Assembly: GCA_964482645.1 (NCBI GenBank)
Contig: CAYZYQ010000004.1
Location: forward strand, 1-63,775
From: an uncultured Lentisphaeraceae bacterium
GTDB lineage: Bacteria > Verrucomicrobiota > Kiritimatiellia > RFP12 > UBA1067
Length of the DNA stretch: 63,775 nucleotides
Direction of reading: 5' to 3'
The number at the start of each line of letters is the position of its first letter. Positions within the stretch are counted from its first letter, which is position 1. The notes below the pieces were generated by a model. The model was not told where the DNA came from. It saw nothing but the letters and a program-made list of their open reading frames with translations, and did not search any database. The position numbers and the translations under genes were made by a program. Below are positions 32,483 through 39,431 of this stretch, one piece after another.

Positions 32483-32612
32483 ACTCGGTGGGAACGAGGA
32501 AAGAGTTTATCAAATGTTTCCGTGGTATGCAAGGGGCGAGACAAAAATACTACAAAAGAACGTTAGGGGGTTGTCCGTGTGCTGTGCTATGATGTATTCG
32601 TCTGGAGGCACA

Positions 32613-33770
32613 ATGACAATGACCGAACGTGAAGCGCGAATAGCATTTAACATGATTCCCACGGTGGGCGCGGTGACGCTGGATCGTCTGATGGCGGAAG
32701 TCGGCGGCCGAGCGGCGGACGCCTATGCGCTCTATCCCGAAAAGAAGGACTGGGAGGGGCGTCTTCCGGACTGGGAAGGCGAAATCGCGCGCGCGGAGAA
32801 GATGCACGTTCGGATCGTAACGGCCGTCGATCCGGACTATCCGCCGCAGTTGAAGGAAATCGCCTCGCCACCGCTGGCCCTCTACGTGGTGGGAGACGTG
32901 GCGGCCCTGTCCCAGGCGGGCGTGGCGATTGTCGGGACGCGGCGGGCGACGCCTTATGGGCGCGAGACGGCGGAACGGCTGGCGTCGAACCTGGTGGGAC
33001 GTGGCTGGGCGGTCTATTCGGGGCTTGCGCGTGGCATCGACGCGGCGGCTCATCGCGGGGCGTTGCTGGCGGGCGGCGTGACGGTCGGCGTTCTGGGCGG
33101 TGCGCTCGATCGGTTTTTCCCGGAGGAGAACCGCGATCTGGCGCGGCAGATGGTTGAGAAACACGGTGCGGTCGTGAGCGAGTTTCCGTTCGGGCGGCCG
33201 CCCGACGTGCAGACGTTTCCGCAGCGCAACCGAATCGTGTCGGGTCTTTCCCGCGGCGTCGTGGCAGTGGAGTGTCCCATCCACAGCGGCACGTTAATCA
33301 CGTGTTCGCGGGCCGTAGAACAGGGGCGCGCCGTGATGGCCGTACCGGGGCGGATCGATTCGGTGGCGTCGGCGGGTTGTCTGCACTTGATTCGCGAAGG
33401 TGCGCGGATGGTGACGTGCGTGGACGACATCGTGGAAGAGCTGTCGCCACTCGGCCGGGCGCCGTCCGCCCCGCCACCGGCGCGGGCAGCTCTGCCGTCG
33501 GGTGGAAAAACTGTACGGACGCCTCCGCCTCCTAAAAAGAGGAAGCCGCCCGTGCTACCGCTCGAGGCGAAGATCTCGTTGGAGGAATCGCTCGTCCTTC
33601 GCGCCGTGCCGGAATCGGGGACGACGGGCGACCACGTGGCGGCGGCGACGAACTTCCCGATGTCCAAGGTGAATGCGCTGCTCGTGGCTCTCCGCCTCAA
33701 GGGTCGGGTGCGTTTCTTGCCCGGAAACCGCGTGGCACCCGTTGACATGGAACCGCGTGGTACCCGTTGA
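32613..33770 (+). CDS. dprA: DNA-processing protein DprA/Smf; C-terminus altered by island insertion
   Basis: AIVGTRRATPYG, SGLARGIDAAAH, FPQRNRIVSGLS, SGTLIT, AVPG, C-terminal winged helix; GGAGG RBS before ATG 32613. Confidence 0.93.
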   Translation: MTMTEREARIAFNMIPTVGAVTLDRLMAEVGGRAADAYALYPEKKDWEGRLPDWEGEIARAEKMHVRIVTAVDPDYPPQLKEIASPPLALYVVGDVAALSQAGVAIVGTRRATPYGRETAERLASNLVGRGWAVYSGLARGIDAAAHRGALLAGGVTVGVLGGALDRFFPEENRDLARQMVEKHGAVVSEFPFGRPPDVQTFPQRNRIVSGLSRGVVAVECPIHSGTLITCSRAVEQGRAVMAVPGRIDSVASAGCLHLIREGARMVTCVDDIVEELSPLGRAPSAPPPARAALPSGGKTVRTPPPPKKRKPPVLPLEAKISLEESLVLRAVPESGTTGDHVAAATNFPMSKVNALLVALRLKGRVRFLPGNRVAPVDMEPRGTR

Positions 33771-33773
33771 CAT
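33723..33773 (+). repeat. Tandem pair of left junction repeats (attL-like)
   Basis: GGAAACCGCGTGGCACCCGTTGACAT (33723-33748) then GGAACCGCGTGGTACCCGTTGACAT (33749-33773); each differs by one base from 38031-38056. Confidence 0.85.
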
Positions 33774-34244
33774 GGTGAATTGCAACCTACGTGGCGCAGG
33801 ACGTCCCTAAACCGTCTTGGCAAGACGTGAATGGTAGCCATATGCGGACGCTCCTTTCAGCGGGCGTCTGTGTATTTTGGAGATTCCCCAATTTTTTCGG
33901 GTACGAAAATCGTCGACCCCTATAAATAAAGGGCGACGTCTCGGTTTTCACATTGCGCCAAGTGAAAATTCGGCTGTGGGAACGTGGCGCACGTTTCCGT
34001 CTTCCCGGCGTGGCTCAATCTCGTGCATATCGTCATCCACGCAAAGCTGCGCCTCGTCCGGCACGGGCGCCTCCCAGTTGACTTTTGATGCGATGGGTAT
34101 ATTGGTTTGATCCTTTGTTTCGGATTTTTCGGGGCAAGGGTGGCTTGCTTGTCGCGCACGGATGTCTCCTGAAAAGCGGAGTTGAAGTCAATGACGCATT
34201 TACCCGTCAATCCGTGCGGACGAGTTGAGCCGACCGTGAAGCTT

Positions 34245-34720
34245 AGATTACGTTGCGGACGAATCCATTTCAGAATCCCAAGCCTCCAGTTCATAGCCAG
34301 TTTCCGTAGTTTATCTCCATATTCATAGTCAATTCAAGTAGTTTCACGGTTGTTTTCACGTTTCACATAGAAACCCCATCCGTTCCATTTTTTCCGTTCC
34401 GTTTTGTAGGATTACGTTGCGGACGAAATTGTCGTGCGGCGGGATGGCGATGTGGAGGGAAAGCATTTCGGGGGTTTCAATTTTTGGGTGGAGGATCGGG
34501 CGTTTTTGTGTTTGGCGGTCGGGCTGGTTACGGTCGGATTGATTGGCGGTCAAATCTGTTGGTGATCGGGCCGTTTGGTGGTCAAACCGGTTAGTGGTTG
34601 GACAGTTTTCCATCTTACAGATGTCAATGACAGTTCGTCCGCAACATAATCTCACGAAACACAGGAGATTGATTTATCCACGATTCTGCAACTGAAAGGA
34701 ATTCGTCCGCAACGTAATCT
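34245..34720. repeat. Four copies of 18-bp GATTACGTTGCGGACGAA in nested inverted arrangement
   Basis: + copies 34246-34263 and 34410-34427; - copies 34634-34651 (one mismatch) and 34702-34719. Confidence 0.9.
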
Positions 34721-34766
34721 CACATTCCCGTTTCAGTCGAATGACTCGTTTGGTAGAATGGACGCC

Positions 34767-35191
34767 ATGGTGATTGAACGTACACTTCCATTGTCCAAGA
34801 AGCTCCTCCGCCATTCGAGAAGCTCCGGTCGGGAAGGGTTGGCTTCCGACATTCACGAAGCCCTGACTTCAAATGAAAAGAGGTTTCCGGTCAGAAGAAA
34901 CGGGAGATTCAGAAGACCGTGGCATGCGATTCCGGGAGAATCGGTAGCCTGGTCGCCGACCTCGAATGCTTCCTCGACAACAGCCTCATCTTCGACGACG
35001 GCGGCGCGATCGTCGGGCGGCGCGGCGGGGTGAAGCGCTGGCTGCAGGAGAACATTCCCGCGCTCTACCTGCGCTACACGACCGTCATGCCCTACAAGGC
35101 CGTCCGCGCAAAACCGTTCGGAGTGCCCTTATCCCAGATTTTCCGGGATAAGGGTGCGTTTCCGCTTGCCTTGACGCAGGTGAAGTGCTAG
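34767..35191 (+). pseudogene. Frame-broken gene remnant of unknown function
   Basis: TGG-TAGAAT-7 nt-ATG start at 34767. A protein-like high-GC3 stretch (RIGSLVADLECFLDNSLIFDDGGAIVGRRGGVKRWLQENIP) lies in a different frame at about 34940-35100 and ends at a palindrome. Confidence 0.45.
35126..35156. repeat. Palindromic element (copy 2 of 248-275)
   Basis: CCCTTATCCC-AGATTTTCC-GGGATAAGGG. Confidence 0.75.
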
Positions 35192-35616
35192 ACTGTGCCG
35201 CGTACATGGGCGAAGGAGTTTTTCGTTCTTTCACATAGGCGGACGGCCCATGGTCCGCCACCGCGCCGGAGGCGAAGCGATTCGCGTCCGGTAGAACCTC
35301 GGCAGAACGTGTCCTAGTGATTTTGGGCGCGAACCCCGAGGGGAGCCGCAGGGTTCCGAGAAGGACTGCGGCGGCGTACGCATACTTGCGTATTTGGCTT
35401 TGAGAGAAAACGACCAAATTTCATTCAAAGAAGTCGAATATGTGGGATGCGCTACGTGGAGTATTCCACGTGGCGTGTTTTCTATTCGTGTTTCTTTGTA
35501 GGCGCTTGGTCGTGCCTCTCTCAAGACAGGAATTTGAAGACACGCCACGTTCCTTTTTTCGCGTCGGATGTGGAGGGTGTCAAACGATTGACGCGAAGAG
35601 ATCGGAGTTCTAGTGT

Positions 35617-35769
35617 ATGTCAAGCGAAGGTAGTAGAATATTTGGGAAAGTCATCTTTTTTATAATTGCAGTGCCGATTGCCATTGTATTGGGAATGGTA
35701 TTTCCTGGTGTTGCACATGCCGTCCTAGCACATGGTGTTATGGTTCTTTATAGGGAGATCTTCCCATAA
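35617..35769 (+). CDS. 50-aa small membrane protein (below the ORF-track cut-off)
   Basis: MSSEGSRIFGKVIFFIIAVPIAIVLGMVFPGVAHAVLAHGVMVLYREIFP; GGAG upstream; first gene of a co-oriented cluster. Confidence 0.6.
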   Translation: MSSEGSRIFGKVIFFIIAVPIAIVLGMVFPGVAHAVLAHGVMVLYREIFP

Positions 35770-35875
35770 CAGAACAGCAAAAGCGGCTTCAATTTTTGGT
35801 CTTGTTTAATCATGTCAACGCGGATACTCCTATCCGAATGAACTCGAAGGAATGTCGTAAGTGAAAGGCGTAGGA

Positions 35876-36190
35876 ATGGCTGTGTTGCATGAAAACAAGA
35901 AGTTTCAATACCAACCTCAAAAAGGAGACCTCAAAATGGACGATTATGTACACGATACAGTTATGGGATATCCTGACACTCAGACAGGGTATTGGGAAGG
36001 TTGGCACTTTTCCGCCAATTGCGAGACAATTACAGAGGGTTGCATAATCAAACCATTTGACTATGATTGTTACCAAGACCAGTTTGTATGCCTGTCGGCG
36101 GTAAACGGCGGCTGTCACATGCCAAGAGGCAGGAGGAGGCCTGAAGCTTTCGGAAGGCTTTCCATGGAAATTTTCCTTGTAGCTCAATAA
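35876..36190 (+). CDS. Hypothetical protein (~104 aa; Cys/Asp/aromatic-rich)
   Basis: Open frame with AGGA before ATG 35876, 13 bp from the next gene; no recognised motif. Confidence 0.6.
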   Translation: MAVLHENKKFQYQPQKGDLKMDDYVHDTVMGYPDTQTGYWEGWHFSANCETITEGCIIKPFDYDCYQDQFVCLSAVNGGCHMPRGRRRPEAFGRLSMEIFLVAQ

Positions 36191-36203
36191 GGGGGAAGAA
36201 ATA

Positions 36204-36830
36204 ATGGAACATTTACTGATGAAGGCTGCGGTTGCGCTCTGCAAGGCATTACACAAAAAAGGACCGCGGGTTTTGGGGAAGGAACTCGCTGGAATCGTAG
36301 AGAAACACGCGATTGCAGTTGCAGTTGCTGGGCTAGGTACCGCATGGTTGCCTGGAGTTGGTGCTACTGCAGCTATGTTGACGAGCGTCGGATTTGTATG
36401 GTCGATGTACGTTCGGATCAGTTCAAGGATAGGCCTCCCGTTTAGTAAGCATATACTCAAATCAGTGGCGACGGCGATAGGTACAAACATCGTTTCATCT
36501 CTAGCCAGTTCTGTGATAATTGGATCTGCGCTTTCTTTTATTCCAGGTTTAGGCAGTATTGGCGCTTCCGCATTGATGGCCGGGGTGGCATTTTCGCTTA
36601 CATGGACAAGTGGGATTGTTTATTTCAAAGTGCTGACTCGTTTTTGCGAAGCGGGTGTCAATTTTGAAAAAGTCAGCGAAAAGGATTTAAAGGCAATGGC
36701 GAAGGAAGTAGTCGAGCAGGAAGATATTAAGGCGATGATGAAACAGGCCAAGCGCCAATTCAAAGAGGCTAAAGCTCGTGGAGATCTCAAGAAATCAGAC
36801 GACAATGTGAAACCCATGGAGGAAATGTAA
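36204..36830 (+). CDS. DUF697/YcjF-like membrane protein
   Basis: IVEKHAIAVAVAGLGTAWLPGVG, FVWSMYVRISSRIGLPFS, ALSFIPGLGSIGA; charged helical C-tail. Confidence 0.6.
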   Translation: MEHLLMKAAVALCKALHKKGPRVLGKELAGIVEKHAIAVAVAGLGTAWLPGVGATAAMLTSVGFVWSMYVRISSRIGLPFSKHILKSVATAIGTNIVSSLASSVIIGSALSFIPGLGSIGASALMAGVAFSLTWTSGIVYFKVLTRFCEAGVNFEKVSEKDLKAMAKEVVEQEDIKAMMKQAKRQFKEAKARGDLKKSDDNVKPMEEM

Positions 36831-36831
36831 T

Positions 36832-37038
36832 ATGTCCTCATCCTATTATGTTAATCGGAAATGTTGTGCCACATGCCGATTTTGGGACGGAGATAGGCGT
36901 CCAGAGTTTCGTGCCAACCGTCTGTATGCGGTGATTGTATCGGGGATGGCTGCGCCATGTATGGCCAAGCCTAATTCAGCCAAATCATCTCCGGTGAACT
37001 ATTGCCCATGCTGGTCGAAATCCCCACAATTGACATGA
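36832..37038 (+). CDS. 68-aa Cys-rich putative metal-binding protein
   Basis: CCATCRFWDG...C...YCPCW; tightly packed between its neighbours. Confidence 0.6.
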   Translation: MSSSYYVNRKCCATCRFWDGDRRPEFRANRLYAVIVSGMAAPCMAKPNSAKSSPVNYCPCWSKSPQLT

Positions 37039-37053
37039 CAGGGAGCAATACAC

Positions 37054-37866
37054 ATGGACTACCATCAATATGTGCATCCGAATGACGAGGCGGCCATATC
37101 TAAACTCAAGGCGATACCAGGGTTCAATATCGCAATGCGTATGTTCATGAAGTTTGGCGTAGAACAATATTGCCGCGCACTTTACATGGCCAATCACATT
37201 AGATTATCCCCCAGACAATTACCGAAGGTATACAACCTTCTACCTCCTATATGCGAAAAACTTGGAATAACTATCCCTGAACTCTATCTACAAATGTATC
37301 CTACGCCCAATGCTTATACGGTTGGTGACAAAAGGAATTGCATTGTCGTGACAAGCGGACTTCTTGATTGCCTTGAGGACGAAGGAGAATTGAGTGCCGC
37401 TCTTGCGCACGAGTGTGGACATATTGCCTGTAGGCATGTGTTTTATTCCACAATGGTACAAATGATGTTCAACTTCGGTGGTCAATACGAAATCGTGCAG
37501 AAAATTCAGGCGCCGTTGGCGCTTGCGTACAACTTTTGGGTACGACAAAGTGAACTTTCCGCCGATCGTGCCGCTGTCGTGTGTCTTGGTAACGTGGTAA
37601 CGCCAATCAACATGATTTTACGACTTGCCGGCGGACCATTTCGATATACCGGTGAGCTGGATCTTGAGGAATATGCCGAACAGATTATGGAAAGCGAGAG
37701 TTTGCAGAAAGATGGCGCATGGCAGAAATTTCTCAGTGATTGCGTGGAGATGGGTGAAGACCATCCGTTTACGTCGACACGGGTCAGGGAATTGTTGCAG
37801 TGGGGCGATGGGGTACGGTCATTTAAGTCAATCGAATGTTCGGATGATAAGAAAGCTTTACCTTGA
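37054..37866 (+). CDS. M48-family (HtpX/Ste24-like) zinc metallopeptidase
   Basis: PNAYTVG, IVVTSGLLD, ELSAALAHECGH (HExxH), ELSADRAA, HPFTSTRV. Confidence 0.9.
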   Translation: MDYHQYVHPNDEAAISKLKAIPGFNIAMRMFMKFGVEQYCRALYMANHIRLSPRQLPKVYNLLPPICEKLGITIPELYLQMYPTPNAYTVGDKRNCIVVTSGLLDCLEDEGELSAALAHECGHIACRHVFYSTMVQMMFNFGGQYEIVQKIQAPLALAYNFWVRQSELSADRAAVVCLGNVVTPINMILRLAGGPFRYTGELDLEEYAEQIMESESLQKDGAWQKFLSDCVEMGEDHPFTSTRVRELLQWGDGVRSFKSIECSDDKKALP

Positions 37867-37906
37867 ATTGACATCAATGATCCTCTCTTTCATACCGCAC
37901 GGCAAA

Positions 37907-38019
37907 GCGGAACTAAACGCAAGTCCCTCCCCGGGAGGGAAGGGGGAATTTCCTGTCACTCCTCGACTATGCCCCGTACCAAAGGAGTAAACGCAAGCCG
38001 TTCTTGCATTTAGTTCCGC
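37907..38019. other. 113-nt self-complementary element (structured RNA or MITE-like)
   Basis: Terminal IR GCGGAACTAAACGCAAG / CTTGCATTTAGTTCCGC (16/17), with internal hairpins. Confidence 0.55.
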
Positions 38020-38030
38020 AAATAACATCT

Positions 38031-38056
38031 GGAAACCGCGTGGTACCCGTTGACAT
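38031..38056 (+). repeat. Right junction repeat (attR-like) containing the nusA -35 box
   Basis: GGAAACCGCGTGGTACCCGTTGACAT. Confidence 0.85.
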
Positions 38057-38078
38057 TTCGCCGATAAAACGGTAATAT
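38050..38078 (+). promoter_or_regulatory. Promoter of the nusA-infB operon
   Basis: TTGACA-17 bp-TAATAT. Confidence 0.7.
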
Positions 38079-38156
38079 ACTCCCTCGTTTCACGGTGGTT
38101 CAGCGAATCACCGCAAGGTTTGTATTGCTTTTTGACATGAGAGGAGCGAGTTGAGA

Positions 38157-39431
38157 ATGGCCATGAACAACGATTTGTTGGCGATCGTGAGCTATATTGA
38201 GCGCGAACGCGGGGTCGAACGCGAAATCGTGCTGACGGCGATTGAACAGGCGATCCAGCAGGCGGCACGGCGGAATCCGGACGTCACCAACGATTTGCGC
38301 GTGGCCATCGACCGGAAGGATCTCTCGCTCCATGTCTACGACACGCTTGTCGTTTCCGACGAGGATGTCGGTACGGGGTTCGTCTCCGTCGCCCGCGCCC
38401 GTCGCTTCAACCCCAACGTGAAGGAAGGGGACACGATCGAGGTCGAGATGCCGGCGTCGCGTCTGGGGCGCATTGCCGCGCAGACGTCCCGTCAGATGAT
38501 CATGCAGAAAATCCGCGAGGCGGAGCGTTCGAACGTCTTTACCGAATACAAGAACCGCGTGGGCGAAATCGTCAGCGGTACGGTCACGACGGTTACCCAG
38601 CGGCACGACCTCTACGTGCTCGTCGGCAAGACGGAGATGATTCTGCCGAGCAAGGAGCGGATTCCCACGGAGGAATACAACGTGGGCGACATGATCCGGG
38701 CGATCGTCCACTCCGTGAAGCCGGAGTCCAACGGCCCGGCGGTGACGTTGAGCCGCGCCTCCGGCAAGTTCGTCCAAAAGCTCTTCAATCTGGAAGTTTC
38801 CGAAATCGCCGATGGCGTGGTGGAAATCATGGGCGTGGCGCGCGATCCGGGCTTCCGCTCGAAGATCGCCGTTCGCACGCACGATGAAAAGGTCGATCCT
38901 GTCGGCGCGTGCGTGGGTTTGAAGGGTGCGCGTGTGCGCAACATCGTGCGCGAGTTGAATGGCGAGAAACTCGACATCGTGCGTTGGTCGGACGATATTA
39001 AAGTGTTCGTCGCGCAGGCGCTGGCGCCGGCCAAGTTGGAGACGATCGAGGTCGATCCGAACGGGGACAAGATCGTCCGCGTGACGGTGGCGCCGGATCA
39101 GTACTCGCTGGCGATTGGCAAGCGCGGCCAGAACGTTCGTCTGACGAAGGCGTTGACGGGGTGGCGCGTGGAAATCACGAAGGCGCTGGCGTTGGCGAGT
39201 TTCGAGGATCAGAAGGCGGCGGCCATCAAGTTGCTGGCCGACATGTTCTCCATTTCGATGGGCGTGGCCACGCAGTTGGCCGACGCGGGCTATCTGACGG
39301 TCGACGGCATTGTCGAGAGCGACGAGGCGGATTTCGTGGCGTCGACGGGGCTGGACGAGGTGACGGCGAAGGGCATCTACGCCGCCGCCCGGGCCGTCAG
39401 CGAACTGACGAACGGCACATCCGACCTCTAA
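38157..39431 (+). CDS. nusA: Transcription termination/antitermination factor NusA
   Basis: GRIAAQTSRQMIMQKIREAER, S1 and KH domains, ARDPGFRSKIAV, DPVGACVG, AIGKRGQNVRL. Start may instead be TTG 38151. Confidence 0.95.
   Translation: MAMNNDLLAIVSYIERERGVEREIVLTAIEQAIQQAARRNPDVTNDLRVAIDRKDLSLHVYDTLVVSDEDVGTGFVSVARARRFNPNVKEGDTIEVEMPASRLGRIAAQTSRQMIMQKIREAERSNVFTEYKNRVGEIVSGTVTTVTQRHDLYVLVGKTEMILPSKERIPTEEYNVGDMIRAIVHSVKPESNGPAVTLSRASGKFVQKLFNLEVSEIADGVVEIMGVARDPGFRSKIAVRTHDEKVDPVGACVGLKGARVRNIVRELNGEKLDIVRWSDDIKVFVAQALAPAKLETIEVDPNGDKIVRVTVAPDQYSLAIGKRGQNVRLTKALTGWRVEITKALALASFEDQKAAAIKLLADMFSISMGVATQLADAGYLTVDGIVESDEADFVASTGLDEVTAKGIYAAARAVSELTNGTSDL

What the first reader, a model, noticed from the sequence alone, without database searches (positions are those of the whole stretch)
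35617..37866. Five-gene uncharacterised module: TM peptide, hypothetical, DUF697-like, Cys-rich mini-protein, M48 protease
Seen: co-oriented, low-GC genes (gaps of 106, 13, 1 and 15 bp) forming the only intact cargo of the islet. The M48 protease shows no obvious signal peptide. Established: small accessory operons in integration hotspots are often anti-phage or envelope-stress systems, and several defence systems use protease-activated membrane effectors. Inference: a candidate new protease/membrane-effector system. I do not recognise this combination.
Basis: partly seen in the sequence, partly recalled or inferred. Interest (0 to 1): 0.65.

Follow-up and report, generated by a model that had tools for sequence, protein, structure and literature searches.

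The report
Mobile protease–membrane-protein three-gene cassette
A 4.3-kb piece of foreign DNA in a gut bacterium carries a conserved, unstudied three-gene cassette (a membrane-hairpin protein, a tiny zinc-binding protein and a soluble zinc protease); relatives of the protease sit beside TIR immune-type genes in other bacteria, so it may be a new cell-defence module.

Summary
All five ORFs are at the stated coordinates, co-oriented and low in GC. Only three form a real conserved unit: p3 (36204-36830, 208 aa), p4 (36832-37038, 68 aa, four invariant Cys) and an M48 protease (37054-37866). This trio recurs in the same order and tight spacing in at least four unrelated flanks, under purifying selection. 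p1 and p2 occur only in near-identical strains and are missing from a co-occurring variant.

The cassette lies on a 4.3-kb insertion between dprA and nusA, bounded by a 23-26 bp direct repeat; a related strain has the empty site.

p3 belongs to a large family with no Pfam model of its own, remotely DUF697-like. The M48 has an intact active site and no membrane anchor. M48 and p3 are adjacent in 20 of 49 complete M48-centred metagenome loci, in a different gene order. p4-p3 and p4-M48 pairs also occur on their own.

In gut Bacteroidales-like contigs the M48-p3 pair is often followed by a TIR-domain gene. PADLOC, phage and plasmid collections and the literature hold nothing matching.

Best reading: an accessory, protease-controlled membrane-acting module, probably a conflict or defence system. 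Function is inferred, not shown. A membrane-stress or quality-control role is the main rival.

The parts
33726..33773 (.). Left boundary: two tandem copies of the 23-bp core of the direct repeat (AACCGCGTGGYACCCGTTGACAT). They overlap the 3' end of dprA. The insertion changes the last six DprA codons.
   Evidence: The empty site in L144 has one copy.
33749..38056 (.). Inserted islet of about 4.3 kb between dprA and nusA. The left 1.8 kb is multi-copy repeat DNA with no recognisable gene. The right 2.4 kb holds the ORFs of the finding.
   Evidence: Empty site in related strain L144. Depth profile and repeats. No Pfam-annotated gene in the left part.
35617..35769 (+). p1: a 50-aa, strongly hydrophobic ORF. 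It is strain-specific and not part of the conserved cassette.
   Evidence: KD19 maximum of 2.81. Found only in near-identical contigs. Deleted together with p2 in a metagenome variant, joint 35619->36202.
35876..36190 (+). p2: a 104-aa ORF (109 aa from GTG at 35861). It is strain-specific and its coding status is doubtful.
   Evidence: No family hits. No homologues outside strains at least 88% identical. Tail dN/dS of 0.86.
36204..36830 (+). p3: a 208-aa all-helical protein. It has two hydrophobic helical hairpins with Gly/Pro turns and a charged C-terminal tail. It is remotely DUF697-like and is the predicted membrane-associated partner.
   Evidence: dN/dS of 0.21 against L058.
36832..37038 (+). 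p4: a 68-aa basic mini-protein with four invariant Cys (C12, C15, C43, C58), presumed to bind zinc. Its small beta-rich fold has no known relative.
37054..37866 (+). Soluble M48 (HtpX-type) zinc metalloprotease. It carries H119-E120-x-x-H123, E167/D171 in SELSADR, and H237-P238. It has no TM segment and no C-terminal zinc ribbon.
37925..37944 (.). GC-rich palindromic hairpin 59 nt after the M48 stop codon; a possible end of the operon.
   Evidence: The scan flagged it only on the - strand, and the T-run on the + strand is weak.
38034..38056 (.). Right boundary copy of the direct repeat. Its TTGACA is the -35 hexamer of the best promoter-like site upstream of nusA.

Best explanation
The functional unit is a three-gene operon, p3-p4-M48. 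It arrived on a 4.3-kb insertion at the dprA/nusA junction.

p3 is a DUF697-superfamily helical protein that associates with the cytoplasmic membrane through two hydrophobic helical hairpins. The M48 enzyme is a cytoplasmic, catalytically intact HtpX-type zinc protease with no membrane anchor of its own. p4 is a basic four-Cys, presumably zinc-binding, mini-protein.

I propose that the three proteins work as one complex. In it the protease controls the membrane protein by cleaving its cytoplasmic C-terminal part, or a p4 lock on it, so that p3 perturbs the membrane only when triggered. This is the logic of protease-activated membrane effectors such as bacterial gasdermins. The role would be accessory, in conflict or anti-phage defence, rather than housekeeping.

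Shown: the three genes are real; they are pairwise and triply linked across lineages; they are under purifying selection; the locus is a strain-variable insertion; the protease active site is intact; and M48 relatives share operons with TIR and SIR2 genes.

Inferred: physical interaction, membrane insertion, who cleaves whom, the trigger, and the defence phenotype.

My sub-confidences are about 0.8 that M48 and p3 are functionally coupled, about 0.4 that p3 (or p4) is the protease substrate, and about 0.35-0.4 that the role is conflict or defence.
For: (1) Same order and tight spacing of p3-p4-M48 in unrelated flanks. L011-14, L015, L020 and L060 show 56-66%, 64-76% and 70-75% amino-acid identity for the three proteins.
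(2) In 80 M48-centred metagenome loci, 25-26 carry a p3-family gene (25 by HMM, 26 by tblastn). That is 20 of the 49 loci with at least 1 kb on both sides. In 24 of 25 it lies immediately downstream on the same strand, the reverse of the window order. Other arrangements exist: L047 has p3, a gap, then M48-ZnR and c2; L137 has M48-c2-p3.
(3) p4 lies next to p3 without M48 (L027, L031, L036, L024). It also overlaps the start of M48 by 4 nt without p3 (L153/L154).
(4) dN/dS for p3 is 0.21. In distant pairs synonymous sites are saturated while dN is 0.17-0.29 for all three genes.
(5) The catalytic residues of the M48 are invariant across the 43 family sequences aligned (A3).
(6) A C-terminal zinc ribbon is present on 22 of 25 p3 genes that neighbour an M48, but on only 4 of 38 in p3-centred loci. 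It is present on 76 of 90 M48 proteins. This suggests a shared coupling device.
(7) Conflict context. In a Bacteroides MAG the order is M48-c1-c2-TIR-TPR-TIR. Of 75 co-oriented downstream ORFs, 23 are TIR_2, 6 ThsB_TIR and 4 SIR2_2. Seven of 10 genes directly after p3 are TIR. p3-domain fusions include TRADD-like N, dynamin and other GTPases, an Hsp70-like ATPase and TerB. Neighbours include a BnzA-like protein, a PDC-M09A-like protein, a HerA ATPase, toxin-antitoxin genes and a NERD helicase.
(8) The locus is a strain-variable insertion with low GC here and in L020.
(9) Contigs from a metatranscriptome cover the cassette.
Against: - No component hits PADLOC.
- The window cassette, the other p3-p4-M48 cassettes and the p3-only loci have no TIR gene. 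The TIR link therefore concerns relatives at about 45% M48 identity.
- Most p3 genes are solitary: 5 of 43 p3-centred loci have M48 and 9 of 43 have p4. That is hard to reconcile with p3 being a dangerous toxin that needs a keeper.
- p3 hydrophobicity is only borderline for TM helices (maximum KD19 of 1.77), and its model matches no known pore-former.
- ECF-type sigma factors lie next to several cassettes and relatives. This fits an envelope-stress regulon equally well.
- Metagenome loci are partly redundant (63 distinct M48 sequences in 80 loci).
- The RNA contigs are unstranded and may include DNA.
- No cleavage, toxicity or phage phenotype has been tested.
Confidence: 0.42

Rival explanations
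1. Membrane-stress or protein quality-control module (a 'split HtpX'). p3 is a harmless membrane-resident adaptor that recruits the anchor-less M48 protease to the membrane to remove damaged membrane proteins. p4 is a zinc-dependent cofactor. Expression is under ECF-sigma envelope-stress control. There is no role in phage defence.
For: - The protease is HtpX-like by sequence but lacks HtpX's TM segments.
- p3 relatives are fused to membrane-remodelling or stress domains: dynamin-like GTPase, TerB and an Hsp70-like ATPase.
- ECF-type sigma genes, with a Ser/Thr kinase, lie divergently upstream of cassettes L011, L020 and L015. A sigma-like gene plus an anti-sigma-like gene recurs in 27-29 of 80 M48 loci.
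- Most p3 genes are solitary, as expected for a non-toxic protein.
- E. coli YcjF (DUF697) and HtpX are heat-shock regulon members (my own knowledge, not tested here).
Against: - The distribution is sporadic and horizontally transferred, and the locus is strain-variable, with low GC and an insertion with an empty site.
- Relatives are tightly linked in operons to TIR and SIR2 genes.
- The window copy has no sigma factor nearby.
Confidence: 0.3
2. Regulatory proteolysis switch of the ImmA/ImmR type. The basic zinc protein p4 binds nucleic acid and represses the operon or a target. M48 cleaves it on a signal. p3 is simply the regulated cargo.
For: - p4 is small and basic (10 K+R against 3 D+E), with four invariant Cys.
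- It sits directly upstream of, or overlaps, the protease gene.
- It also heads other, variable cargo genes: L058 and L142.
Against: - Most M48-p3 pairs have no p4 (1 of 80 M48 loci).
- The p4 fold matches no DNA-binding protein.
- The protease is M48, not the M78 ImmA/IrrE family.
Confidence: 0.12
3. The full five-gene system proposed by the first reader, with the p1 TM peptide and p2 as integral components (for example p1 as the effector).
For: The genes are co-oriented with short gaps. p1 is strongly hydrophobic. A contig from the RNA run covers p1-p2.
Against: - p1 and p2 are absent from every other cassette.
- They are replaced by 33 nt in a variant that keeps p3.
- They have no homologues.
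- The p2 tail evolves almost neutrally.
Confidence: 0.05
4. In this genome the cassette is an inert relic of a decayed mobile element with no current function.
For: - The rest of the islet is repeat debris with no integrase.
- The partners seen in relatives (sigma factor, TIR, c2) are missing here.
Against: - The three ORFs are intact, have good Shine-Dalgarno sequences and conserved catalytic residues.
- The cassette is kept at the same site in strains about 1.5% diverged.
- p3 dN/dS is 0.21.
- RNA-run contigs cover it.
Confidence: 0.08

Closest known systems
HtpX (M48B membrane protease of E. coli and relatives)
   Same: Peptidase_M48 catalytic domain with the HExxH motif and a downstream Glu ligand. 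The best NCBIfam and PDB sequence matches are HtpX.
   Different: It has no transmembrane segments and carries a conserved 80-residue N-terminal region. Scores are far below the HtpX equivalog cut-offs (48.6 against 369 bits). Most family members carry a C-terminal zinc ribbon. The gene is paired with a separate membrane-type protein.
DUF697 / YcjF (with the YcjX NTPase), DUF4112 and EcsC-like proteins
   Same: Hydrophobic helical hairpins with Gly/Pro turns. Some members are fused to or associated with GTPases. 28 of 131 family representatives give PF05128 hits.
   Different: The window protein gives no Pfam hit, and hhalign against E. coli YcjF is negative. The partner here is a protease and a Cys-rich mini-protein, not YcjX.
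Bacterial gasdermin plus adjacent protease operons (my knowledge: Johnson et al., Science 2022)
   Same: A protease gene lies next to a membrane-acting protein on accessory DNA. Cassette-type p3 proteins carry a conserved C-terminal extension of about 20 residues that distant stand-alone homologues lack. This is reminiscent of an inhibitory tail.
   Different: p3 is all-helical and matches nothing in PDB, so it has no gasdermin fold. The protease is M48, not caspase- or trypsin-like. Neither cleavage nor pore formation has been shown.
Thoeris-type TIR systems (TIR sensor plus SIR2, TM or protease effector; my knowledge)
   Same: Relatives of the M48-p3 pair are followed by ThsB-like or TIR_2 genes in the same operon.
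   Different: The window has no TIR or SIR2 gene. There are no PADLOC Thoeris hits. The M48 and DUF697-like proteins are not known Thoeris components.
ImmA/IrrE-ImmR metalloprotease/regulator pairs of mobile elements (my knowledge)
   Same: A small protein gene lies immediately upstream of an HExxH metalloprotease gene on a horizontally acquired islet.
   Different: The peptidase family differs (M48, not M78). p4 is a four-Cys beta-rich protein, not an HTH repressor.
[quoted passage not shown]
   Same: It is annotated as M48 and lies in a defence island.
   Different: That gene accompanies type I restriction-modification and DarTG systems. No p3- or p4-like partner is described for it. Its sequence relationship to the window protease was not tested here.

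Membership tests
Peptidase family M48 (PF01435) | Pfam model matched above the gathering score | tested here: met
   76.9 bits against a cut-off of 20.3, E = 2.3e-21.
Peptidase family M48 (PF01435) | Zinc-binding HExxH motif plus a downstream Glu ligand and the C-terminal HP motif | tested here: met
   H119, E120, H123, E167, D171, H237 and P238 are invariant across the 43 family sequences aligned.
HtpX orthologue (M48B) | Four hydrophobic or TM segments that anchor the catalytic domain in the membrane, and an equivalog-level score | tested here: not met
   No TM segment. NCBIfam HtpX models score 27-49 bits against cut-offs of 245-422.
DUF697 (PF05128) | Pfam model matched by the window protein | tested here: not met
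   No hit at E <= 1. hhalign of the family alignment against E. coli YcjF gives probability 0.2%.
DUF697 (PF05128) | Remote homology through family members; association with GTPase domains | tested here: inconclusive
   28 of 131 representatives hit PF05128 at E <= 0.1, best 7e-7. DUF4112 is hit by 19 and EcsC by 3. Fusions to Dynamin_N and MMR_HSR1 exist.
Known anti-phage defence systems (PADLOC-DB v2) | At least one component matches a system HMM | tested here: not met
   No hits for any of the five proteins. Partner families c2, c4 and c15 also give no hits.
Known anti-phage defence systems (PADLOC-DB v2) | Recurrent location next to known defence genes | tested here: inconclusive
   In favour: TIR, SIR2, BnzA-like, PDC-M09A-like, HerA, toxin-antitoxin and NERD neighbours in relatives. 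Against: none are present in the window, and no background-controlled enrichment test was done.
Known anti-phage defence systems (PADLOC-DB v2) | Protection against phage on expression | not testable with these tools
   Needs an experiment.
Thoeris-like TIR systems | A TIR-domain (ThsB-like) gene in the locus | tested here: not met
   An ad-hoc TIR HMM, seeded with Pfam-verified TIRs, finds none in the window or in other p3-p4-M48 cassettes. It finds TIR in 26 of 80 M48-centred loci.
Bacterial gasdermin-protease systems | Gasdermin fold of the membrane effector | tested here: not met
   The p3 model is all-helical (pLDDT 78, pTM 0.80). No PDB match at E <= 0.001.
Bacterial gasdermin-protease systems | Protease cleaves a C-terminal inhibitory peptide | not testable with these tools
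   The only observation is a conserved C-terminal tail in cassette-type p3.
Site-specifically integrated mobile islet | Flanking direct repeats and an empty site in a related genome | tested here: met
   Three copies of the 23-bp core against 0 expected. Empty site in L144.
Site-specifically integrated mobile islet | Integrase or transposase gene in the element | tested here: not met
   No Pfam-annotated gene in the islet other than M48. The left-part ORFs are unknown to the protein collection.

The most novel reading that the evidence does not exclude
The soluble M48 protease and the DUF697-like membrane-hairpin protein form the core of a widespread, undescribed immune module. A protease-gated helical membrane effector, coupled through C-terminal zinc ribbons or the four-Cys p4 protein, executes cell death or membrane arrest. 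In gut Bacteroidales this would act downstream of TIR signalling. In the window it would be a minimal stand-alone cassette.
Probability: 0.2. Interest if true: 0.8.

Novelty: new variant of a known kind. Interest (0 to 1): 0.58.

Why it matters
If the reading is right, it gives a first functional handle on three things:
- the large DUF697-like superfamily, including about 700 clusters (at 50% identity) of the p3 family, which has no Pfam model of its own;
- a family of more than 860 anchor-less M48 proteases that are common in human-gut and rumen metagenomes;
- a new four-Cys mini-protein family.

It would add a metalloprotease/helical-membrane-effector pair to the known protease-activated cell-death systems. 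It would also point to a new effector arm for TIR-based immunity in Bacteroidales.

Even under the rival reading (membrane quality control), a 'split HtpX' that needs a separate membrane adaptor would be new.

A practical point: public annotation of this contig mis-calls p3 on the wrong strand, so homology-based surveys currently miss it.

Tried and rejected
- Pfam, NCBIfam, PHROGs and PADLOC scans of p1-p4 gave nothing significant.
- Foldseek of the p3 and p4 models against PDB gave no match at E <= 0.001.
- hhalign of the p3 family against E. coli YcjF was negative.
- p3 is absent from PLSDB plasmids, INPHARED phages and IMG/VR. p4 gave only 13-residue motif matches in IMG/VR. A phage or plasmid origin is therefore not supported.
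- Distant M48 relatives on Bernardetia and Thermus plasmids have uninformative neighbours.
- The Rfam scan of the islet gave only a sub-threshold SAM-III hit.
- Aligning the regions upstream of p3 from six cassettes showed no shared promoter motif, only a purine-rich ribosome-binding site.
- I looked for remnants of the sigma, kinase or transposase genes seen beside other cassettes. There are none in the window.
- The idea that p4 strictly replaces the zinc ribbons was rejected. L153/L154 carry p4 together with a zinc-ribbon M48.
- The minus-strand 226-aa public gene call was rejected as an antisense shadow.
- Literature searches for DUF697, M48 with TIR, and M48 with defence found no description of this pairing.
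- The organism was not identified. The runs holding the sequence are gut or faecal metagenomes. The nearest named cassette relatives are rumen Kiritimatiellae MAGs.
Full report
**1. What is in the sequence**

Between dprA (32514-33770) and nusA (38151-39431) the window has a stretch where GC falls from 0.60-0.68 to 0.44-0.50.
- p1, 35617-35769
- p2, 35876-36190
- p3, 36204-36830
- p4, 36832-37038
- M48, 37054-37866

ORF5 is a clear Peptidase_M48 (76.9 bits against a cut-off of 20.3). It has a hydrophilic N-terminus and no TM segment. The other four give nothing in Pfam, NCBIfam, PHROGs or PADLOC.

**2. The islet is a true insertion**

A related strain whose IF2 falls in the same 90% cluster (L144) has dprA and nusA 81 bp apart. 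Aligning the junctions shows one copy of GGAAACCGCGTGGCACCCGTTGACAT at the empty site. In the window a copy sits at each end of a 4.3-kb insert (33749-38056), with one extra tandem copy on the left. That makes three copies against 0 expected by chance.

The repeat overlaps the last dprA codons, so DprA ends ...VDMEPRGTR instead of ...VDISPIKR. It also contains the TTGACA -35 hexamer of the best promoter-like site before nusA.

The left 1.8 kb of the insert is multi-copy repeat DNA: its depth is 5-50 times that of the flanks in four public runs. It contains a 29-bp inverted repeat and no recognisable gene or integrase.

**3. Which genes are real and belong together**

Public gene calls on identical contigs show a minus-strand 226-aa ORF (35810-36490) and only an 84-aa stump of p3. 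Homologues settle the strand. The + strand 208-aa p3 is conserved end to end, whereas the minus-strand frame is conserved only as an antisense shadow.

p3, p4 and M48 recur contiguously, in the same order and with gaps of a few nucleotides, in unrelated flanks:
- L011-14
- L015
- L020 (a rumen MAG)
- L060

Their amino-acid identities to the window are 56-66% (p3), 64-76% (p4) and 70-75% (M48). Matching contig lengths across the three hit lists suggest about ten more cassettes; this is an inference.

Selection is purifying. dN/dS is 0.21 for p3 against the 90%-identical L058. In distant pairs synonymous sites are saturated while dN is 0.17-0.29.

p1 and p2 do not belong to the unit:
- They have no relatives outside strains at least 88% identical.
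- They are replaced by 33 nt in a metagenome variant that keeps p3 (joint 35619->36202).
- The p2 tail evolves with dN/dS of about 0.86, though over only 24 codons.

**4. The three proteins**

*M48.* The family has 866 hits in the word-indexed search. H119-E120-x-x-H123, E167/D171 (SELSADR) and H237-P238 are invariant across the 43 family sequences aligned. The only solved relative by sequence is an HtpX fragment. NCBIfam HtpX models match far below their cut-offs. Of 90 M48 ORFs from this family in the fetched loci, 76 end in a CxxC...CxxC zinc ribbon. Every p3-p4-M48 cassette lacks it.

*p3.* An exhaustive profile search finds 707 clusters at 50% identity. It occurs in 38 GTDB species across many phyla. 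AlphaFold gives an all-helical bundle (pLDDT 78, pTM 0.80) with low-confidence Gly/Pro turns at residues 48-56 and 102-117, in the middle of the two hydrophobic stretches. Nothing in PDB resembles it.

The window protein gives no DUF697 hit, and hhalign against E. coli YcjF is negative. However, 28 of 131 family representatives hit PF05128 (best E = 7e-7), 19 hit DUF4112 and 3 hit EcsC. 'DUF697-like' is therefore a fair but remote description.

Family members are fused to several other domains:
- Dynamin_N and MMR_HSR1 GTPases
- an Hsp70-like ATPase, next to a HerA-like ATPase
- TRADD-like N
- TerB
- GYF
- SAP
- SHOCT-like domains
- zinc ribbons

*p4.* The family has 108 clusters, all 65-70 aa apart from extended gene calls, with no Pfam domain. 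C12, C15, C43 and C58 are invariant. The protein is basic. Its model is small and beta-rich (pLDDT 80) with no structural match.

**5. Co-occurrence beyond the cassette**

In p3-centred loci most p3 genes are solitary: of 43 loci, 5 have M48 and 9 have p4.

In M48-centred loci the link is strong. Of 80 metagenome loci, 25 (by HMM) or 26 (by tblastn) have p3. Among the 49 loci with at least 1 kb on both sides, 20 have it. In 24 of 25 cases p3 lies directly downstream on the same strand, the opposite order to the window.

Other arrangements also occur:
- p3, a gap, then M48-ZnR and c2 (L047)
- M48-c2-p3 (L137)
- p4-p3 without M48 (L027, L031)
- p4 overlapping M48 by 4 nt without p3 (L153/L154)

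All three pairwise links therefore exist independently. That is the strongest argument that the trio works together.

p3 genes next to an M48 carry a C-terminal zinc ribbon in 22 of 25 cases, against 4 of 38 elsewhere.

L058 shows that the partners can be swapped. It carries a p3 that is 90% identical to the window's, followed by a broken p4, a second p4-like gene and four unrelated genes, with no M48. One of those four is PDC-M09A-like.

**6. Context of the wider family**

Where p3 is absent, M48 is usually followed by c1 (85 aa, 37 loci) and c2 (170 aa with a zinc ribbon, 35 loci).

Recurrent neighbours are:
- a sigma-70-like protein (27 loci)
- a Peptidase_C39_2-like protein with or without a RyR domain (29 loci); I read its N-terminus as anti-sigma-like, which is an inference
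- a NusG-like protein (18 loci)
- a TM protein of 645-770 aa (10 loci)

Cassettes L011 and L020 have a divergent ECF-type sigma plus a Ser/Thr kinase upstream, and L015 has another sigma. The window has none.

The most telling context is TIR:
- In a Bacteroides MAG the operon runs M48-ZnR, c1, c2, TIR (ThsB_TIR/TIR_2), TPR, TIR.
- Among 75 co-oriented ORFs of at least 200 aa within about 4 kb downstream of 63 non-identical M48 genes, 23 are TIR_2, 13 RyR, 6 ThsB_TIR and 4 SIR2_2.
- Seven of 10 genes directly following p3 are TIR above Pfam's cut-off.
- An ad-hoc TIR profile finds TIR in 26 of 80 M48 loci. It finds none in the window, the other p3-p4-M48 cassettes or the p3-only loci.

Other defence-flavoured neighbours are a BnzA-like protein after M48 in L011, toxin-antitoxin genes around p4-p3 in L140, and a dynamin pair plus NERD helicase beside p4 in L142.

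None of the three families is found in phage or plasmid collections or in IMG/VR. The only exception is distant M48 relatives on megaplasmids.

**7. Expression**

Contigs from a gut metatranscriptome run cover 35566-36414 and 36586-39306. The second is a single contig spanning p3 (3' end), p4, M48 and nusA. These contigs are unstranded and DNA carry-over cannot be excluded. The result therefore shows only that the sequence is present in an RNA library.

**8. Interpretation**

The evidence shows a mobile three-gene cassette whose protease and membrane-type protein are evolutionarily coupled. It does not show what the cassette does.

I favour a protease-controlled membrane-acting module with an accessory conflict or defence role (confidence about 0.4). 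The reasons are the horizontal mobility, the strain variability, the domain company of p3 (TRADD-N, GTPases, TerB), the TIR/SIR2 operon partners of the M48 family, and the analogy with protease-activated membrane effectors. Cassette-type p3 proteins also have a conserved C-terminal tail that distant solitary homologues lack. This is a clade feature and only weak evidence.

The main rival (about 0.3) is a membrane-stress or quality-control unit in which p3 docks an anchor-less HtpX-like protease, possibly under ECF-sigma control. The many solitary p3 genes and the nearby sigma factors fit this reading better.

Less likely readings are an ImmA/ImmR-like switch with p4 as the substrate, the original five-gene model, and an inert relic.

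**9. Novelty**

The searched literature and PADLOC-DB v2 describe no M48 + DUF697-like, M48 + TIR or p4-type system. The protein families themselves are of known (M48), remote (DUF697-like) or unknown (p4) kinds. The proposed logic resembles known protease-effector systems. I therefore rate it a new variant of a known kind, of moderate-to-good interest.

Noticed in passing
window 35810-36490 (- strand) and 36576-36830 (+): Public annotation of identical contigs calls a 226-aa minus-strand ORF and only an 84-aa C-terminal stump of p3. Homologues show that the 208-aa + strand frame is the real gene. The p3 family is therefore under-called in databases.
   Followed up: yes
window 33650-35600: The left part of the islet is multi-copy DNA. 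Contig depth is 5-50 times that of the flanks in four runs, with many joints and loose ends. A 29-bp inverted repeat lies at 34245-34273 / 34692-34720. Segment 34953-35169 has depth of about 1300 in a metatranscriptome run. It may be a MITE or IS remnant, or a highly expressed repeat.
   Followed up: partly
window 33726-33773 and 38034-38056: The att-like repeat contains the -35 hexamer of the nusA promoter-like site and the last dprA codons. The insertion therefore rewrites the DprA C-terminus. It also duplicates a TTGACA that could read into the islet.
   Followed up: partly
window 35619->36202 (run X15): A co-occurring strain variant replaces p1+p2 (582 bp) with a 33-nt sequence and keeps p3 onward.
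   Followed up: partly
L074 3753-8712; L063-L138: Conserved Bacteroidales-type operons with this gene order: a sigma-70-like protein; an anti-sigma-like N-terminus fused to a Peptidase_C39_2-like domain (with or without RyR); M48-ZnR; then either p3-ZnR or the pair of an 85-aa protein and a 170-aa zinc-ribbon protein; then a 645-770 aa TM protein. Some are preceded by a NusG-like gene. In L074 the operon sits beside rplU/rpmA.
   Followed up: partly
L151 8001-13903; L065, L075, L077, L087, L093, L097, L098: TIR-domain genes (ThsB_TIR/TIR_2), sometimes with TPR or SIR2 proteins, directly follow the M48-c1-c2 or M48-p3 genes. I did not find this operon type in PADLOC v2 or in the searched literature.
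   Followed up: partly
L042, L046, L048, L051, L054, L055 (Clostridia MAGs): The p3 domain forms the N-terminus of proteins of about 650 aa with an Hsp70-like ATPase domain. They lie in a conserved operon with a C39-like protein, two small proteins and a HerA/FtsK-like ATPase of about 870 aa.
   Followed up: partly
L058 128-6594: A p3 that is 90% identical to the window's is followed by a frameshifted p4, a second intact p4-like gene and four unrelated genes. One has a Gly-rich TM C-terminus that hits PADLOC candidate PDC-M09A. This suggests cassette shuffling downstream of p3/p4.
   Followed up: partly
L142/L143 1-9240: A p4 homologue sits between a pair of dynamin-like GTPase genes and a NERD-helicase gene, surrounded by several DUF1232 genes. 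DUF1232 also follows the cassette in L011.
   Followed up: no
L019 6846-7442 and 14783-15379: Two copies of a p3 homologue lie within a segmental duplication of about 8 kb that also carries IS1595-like fragments and HU-like genes.
   Followed up: no
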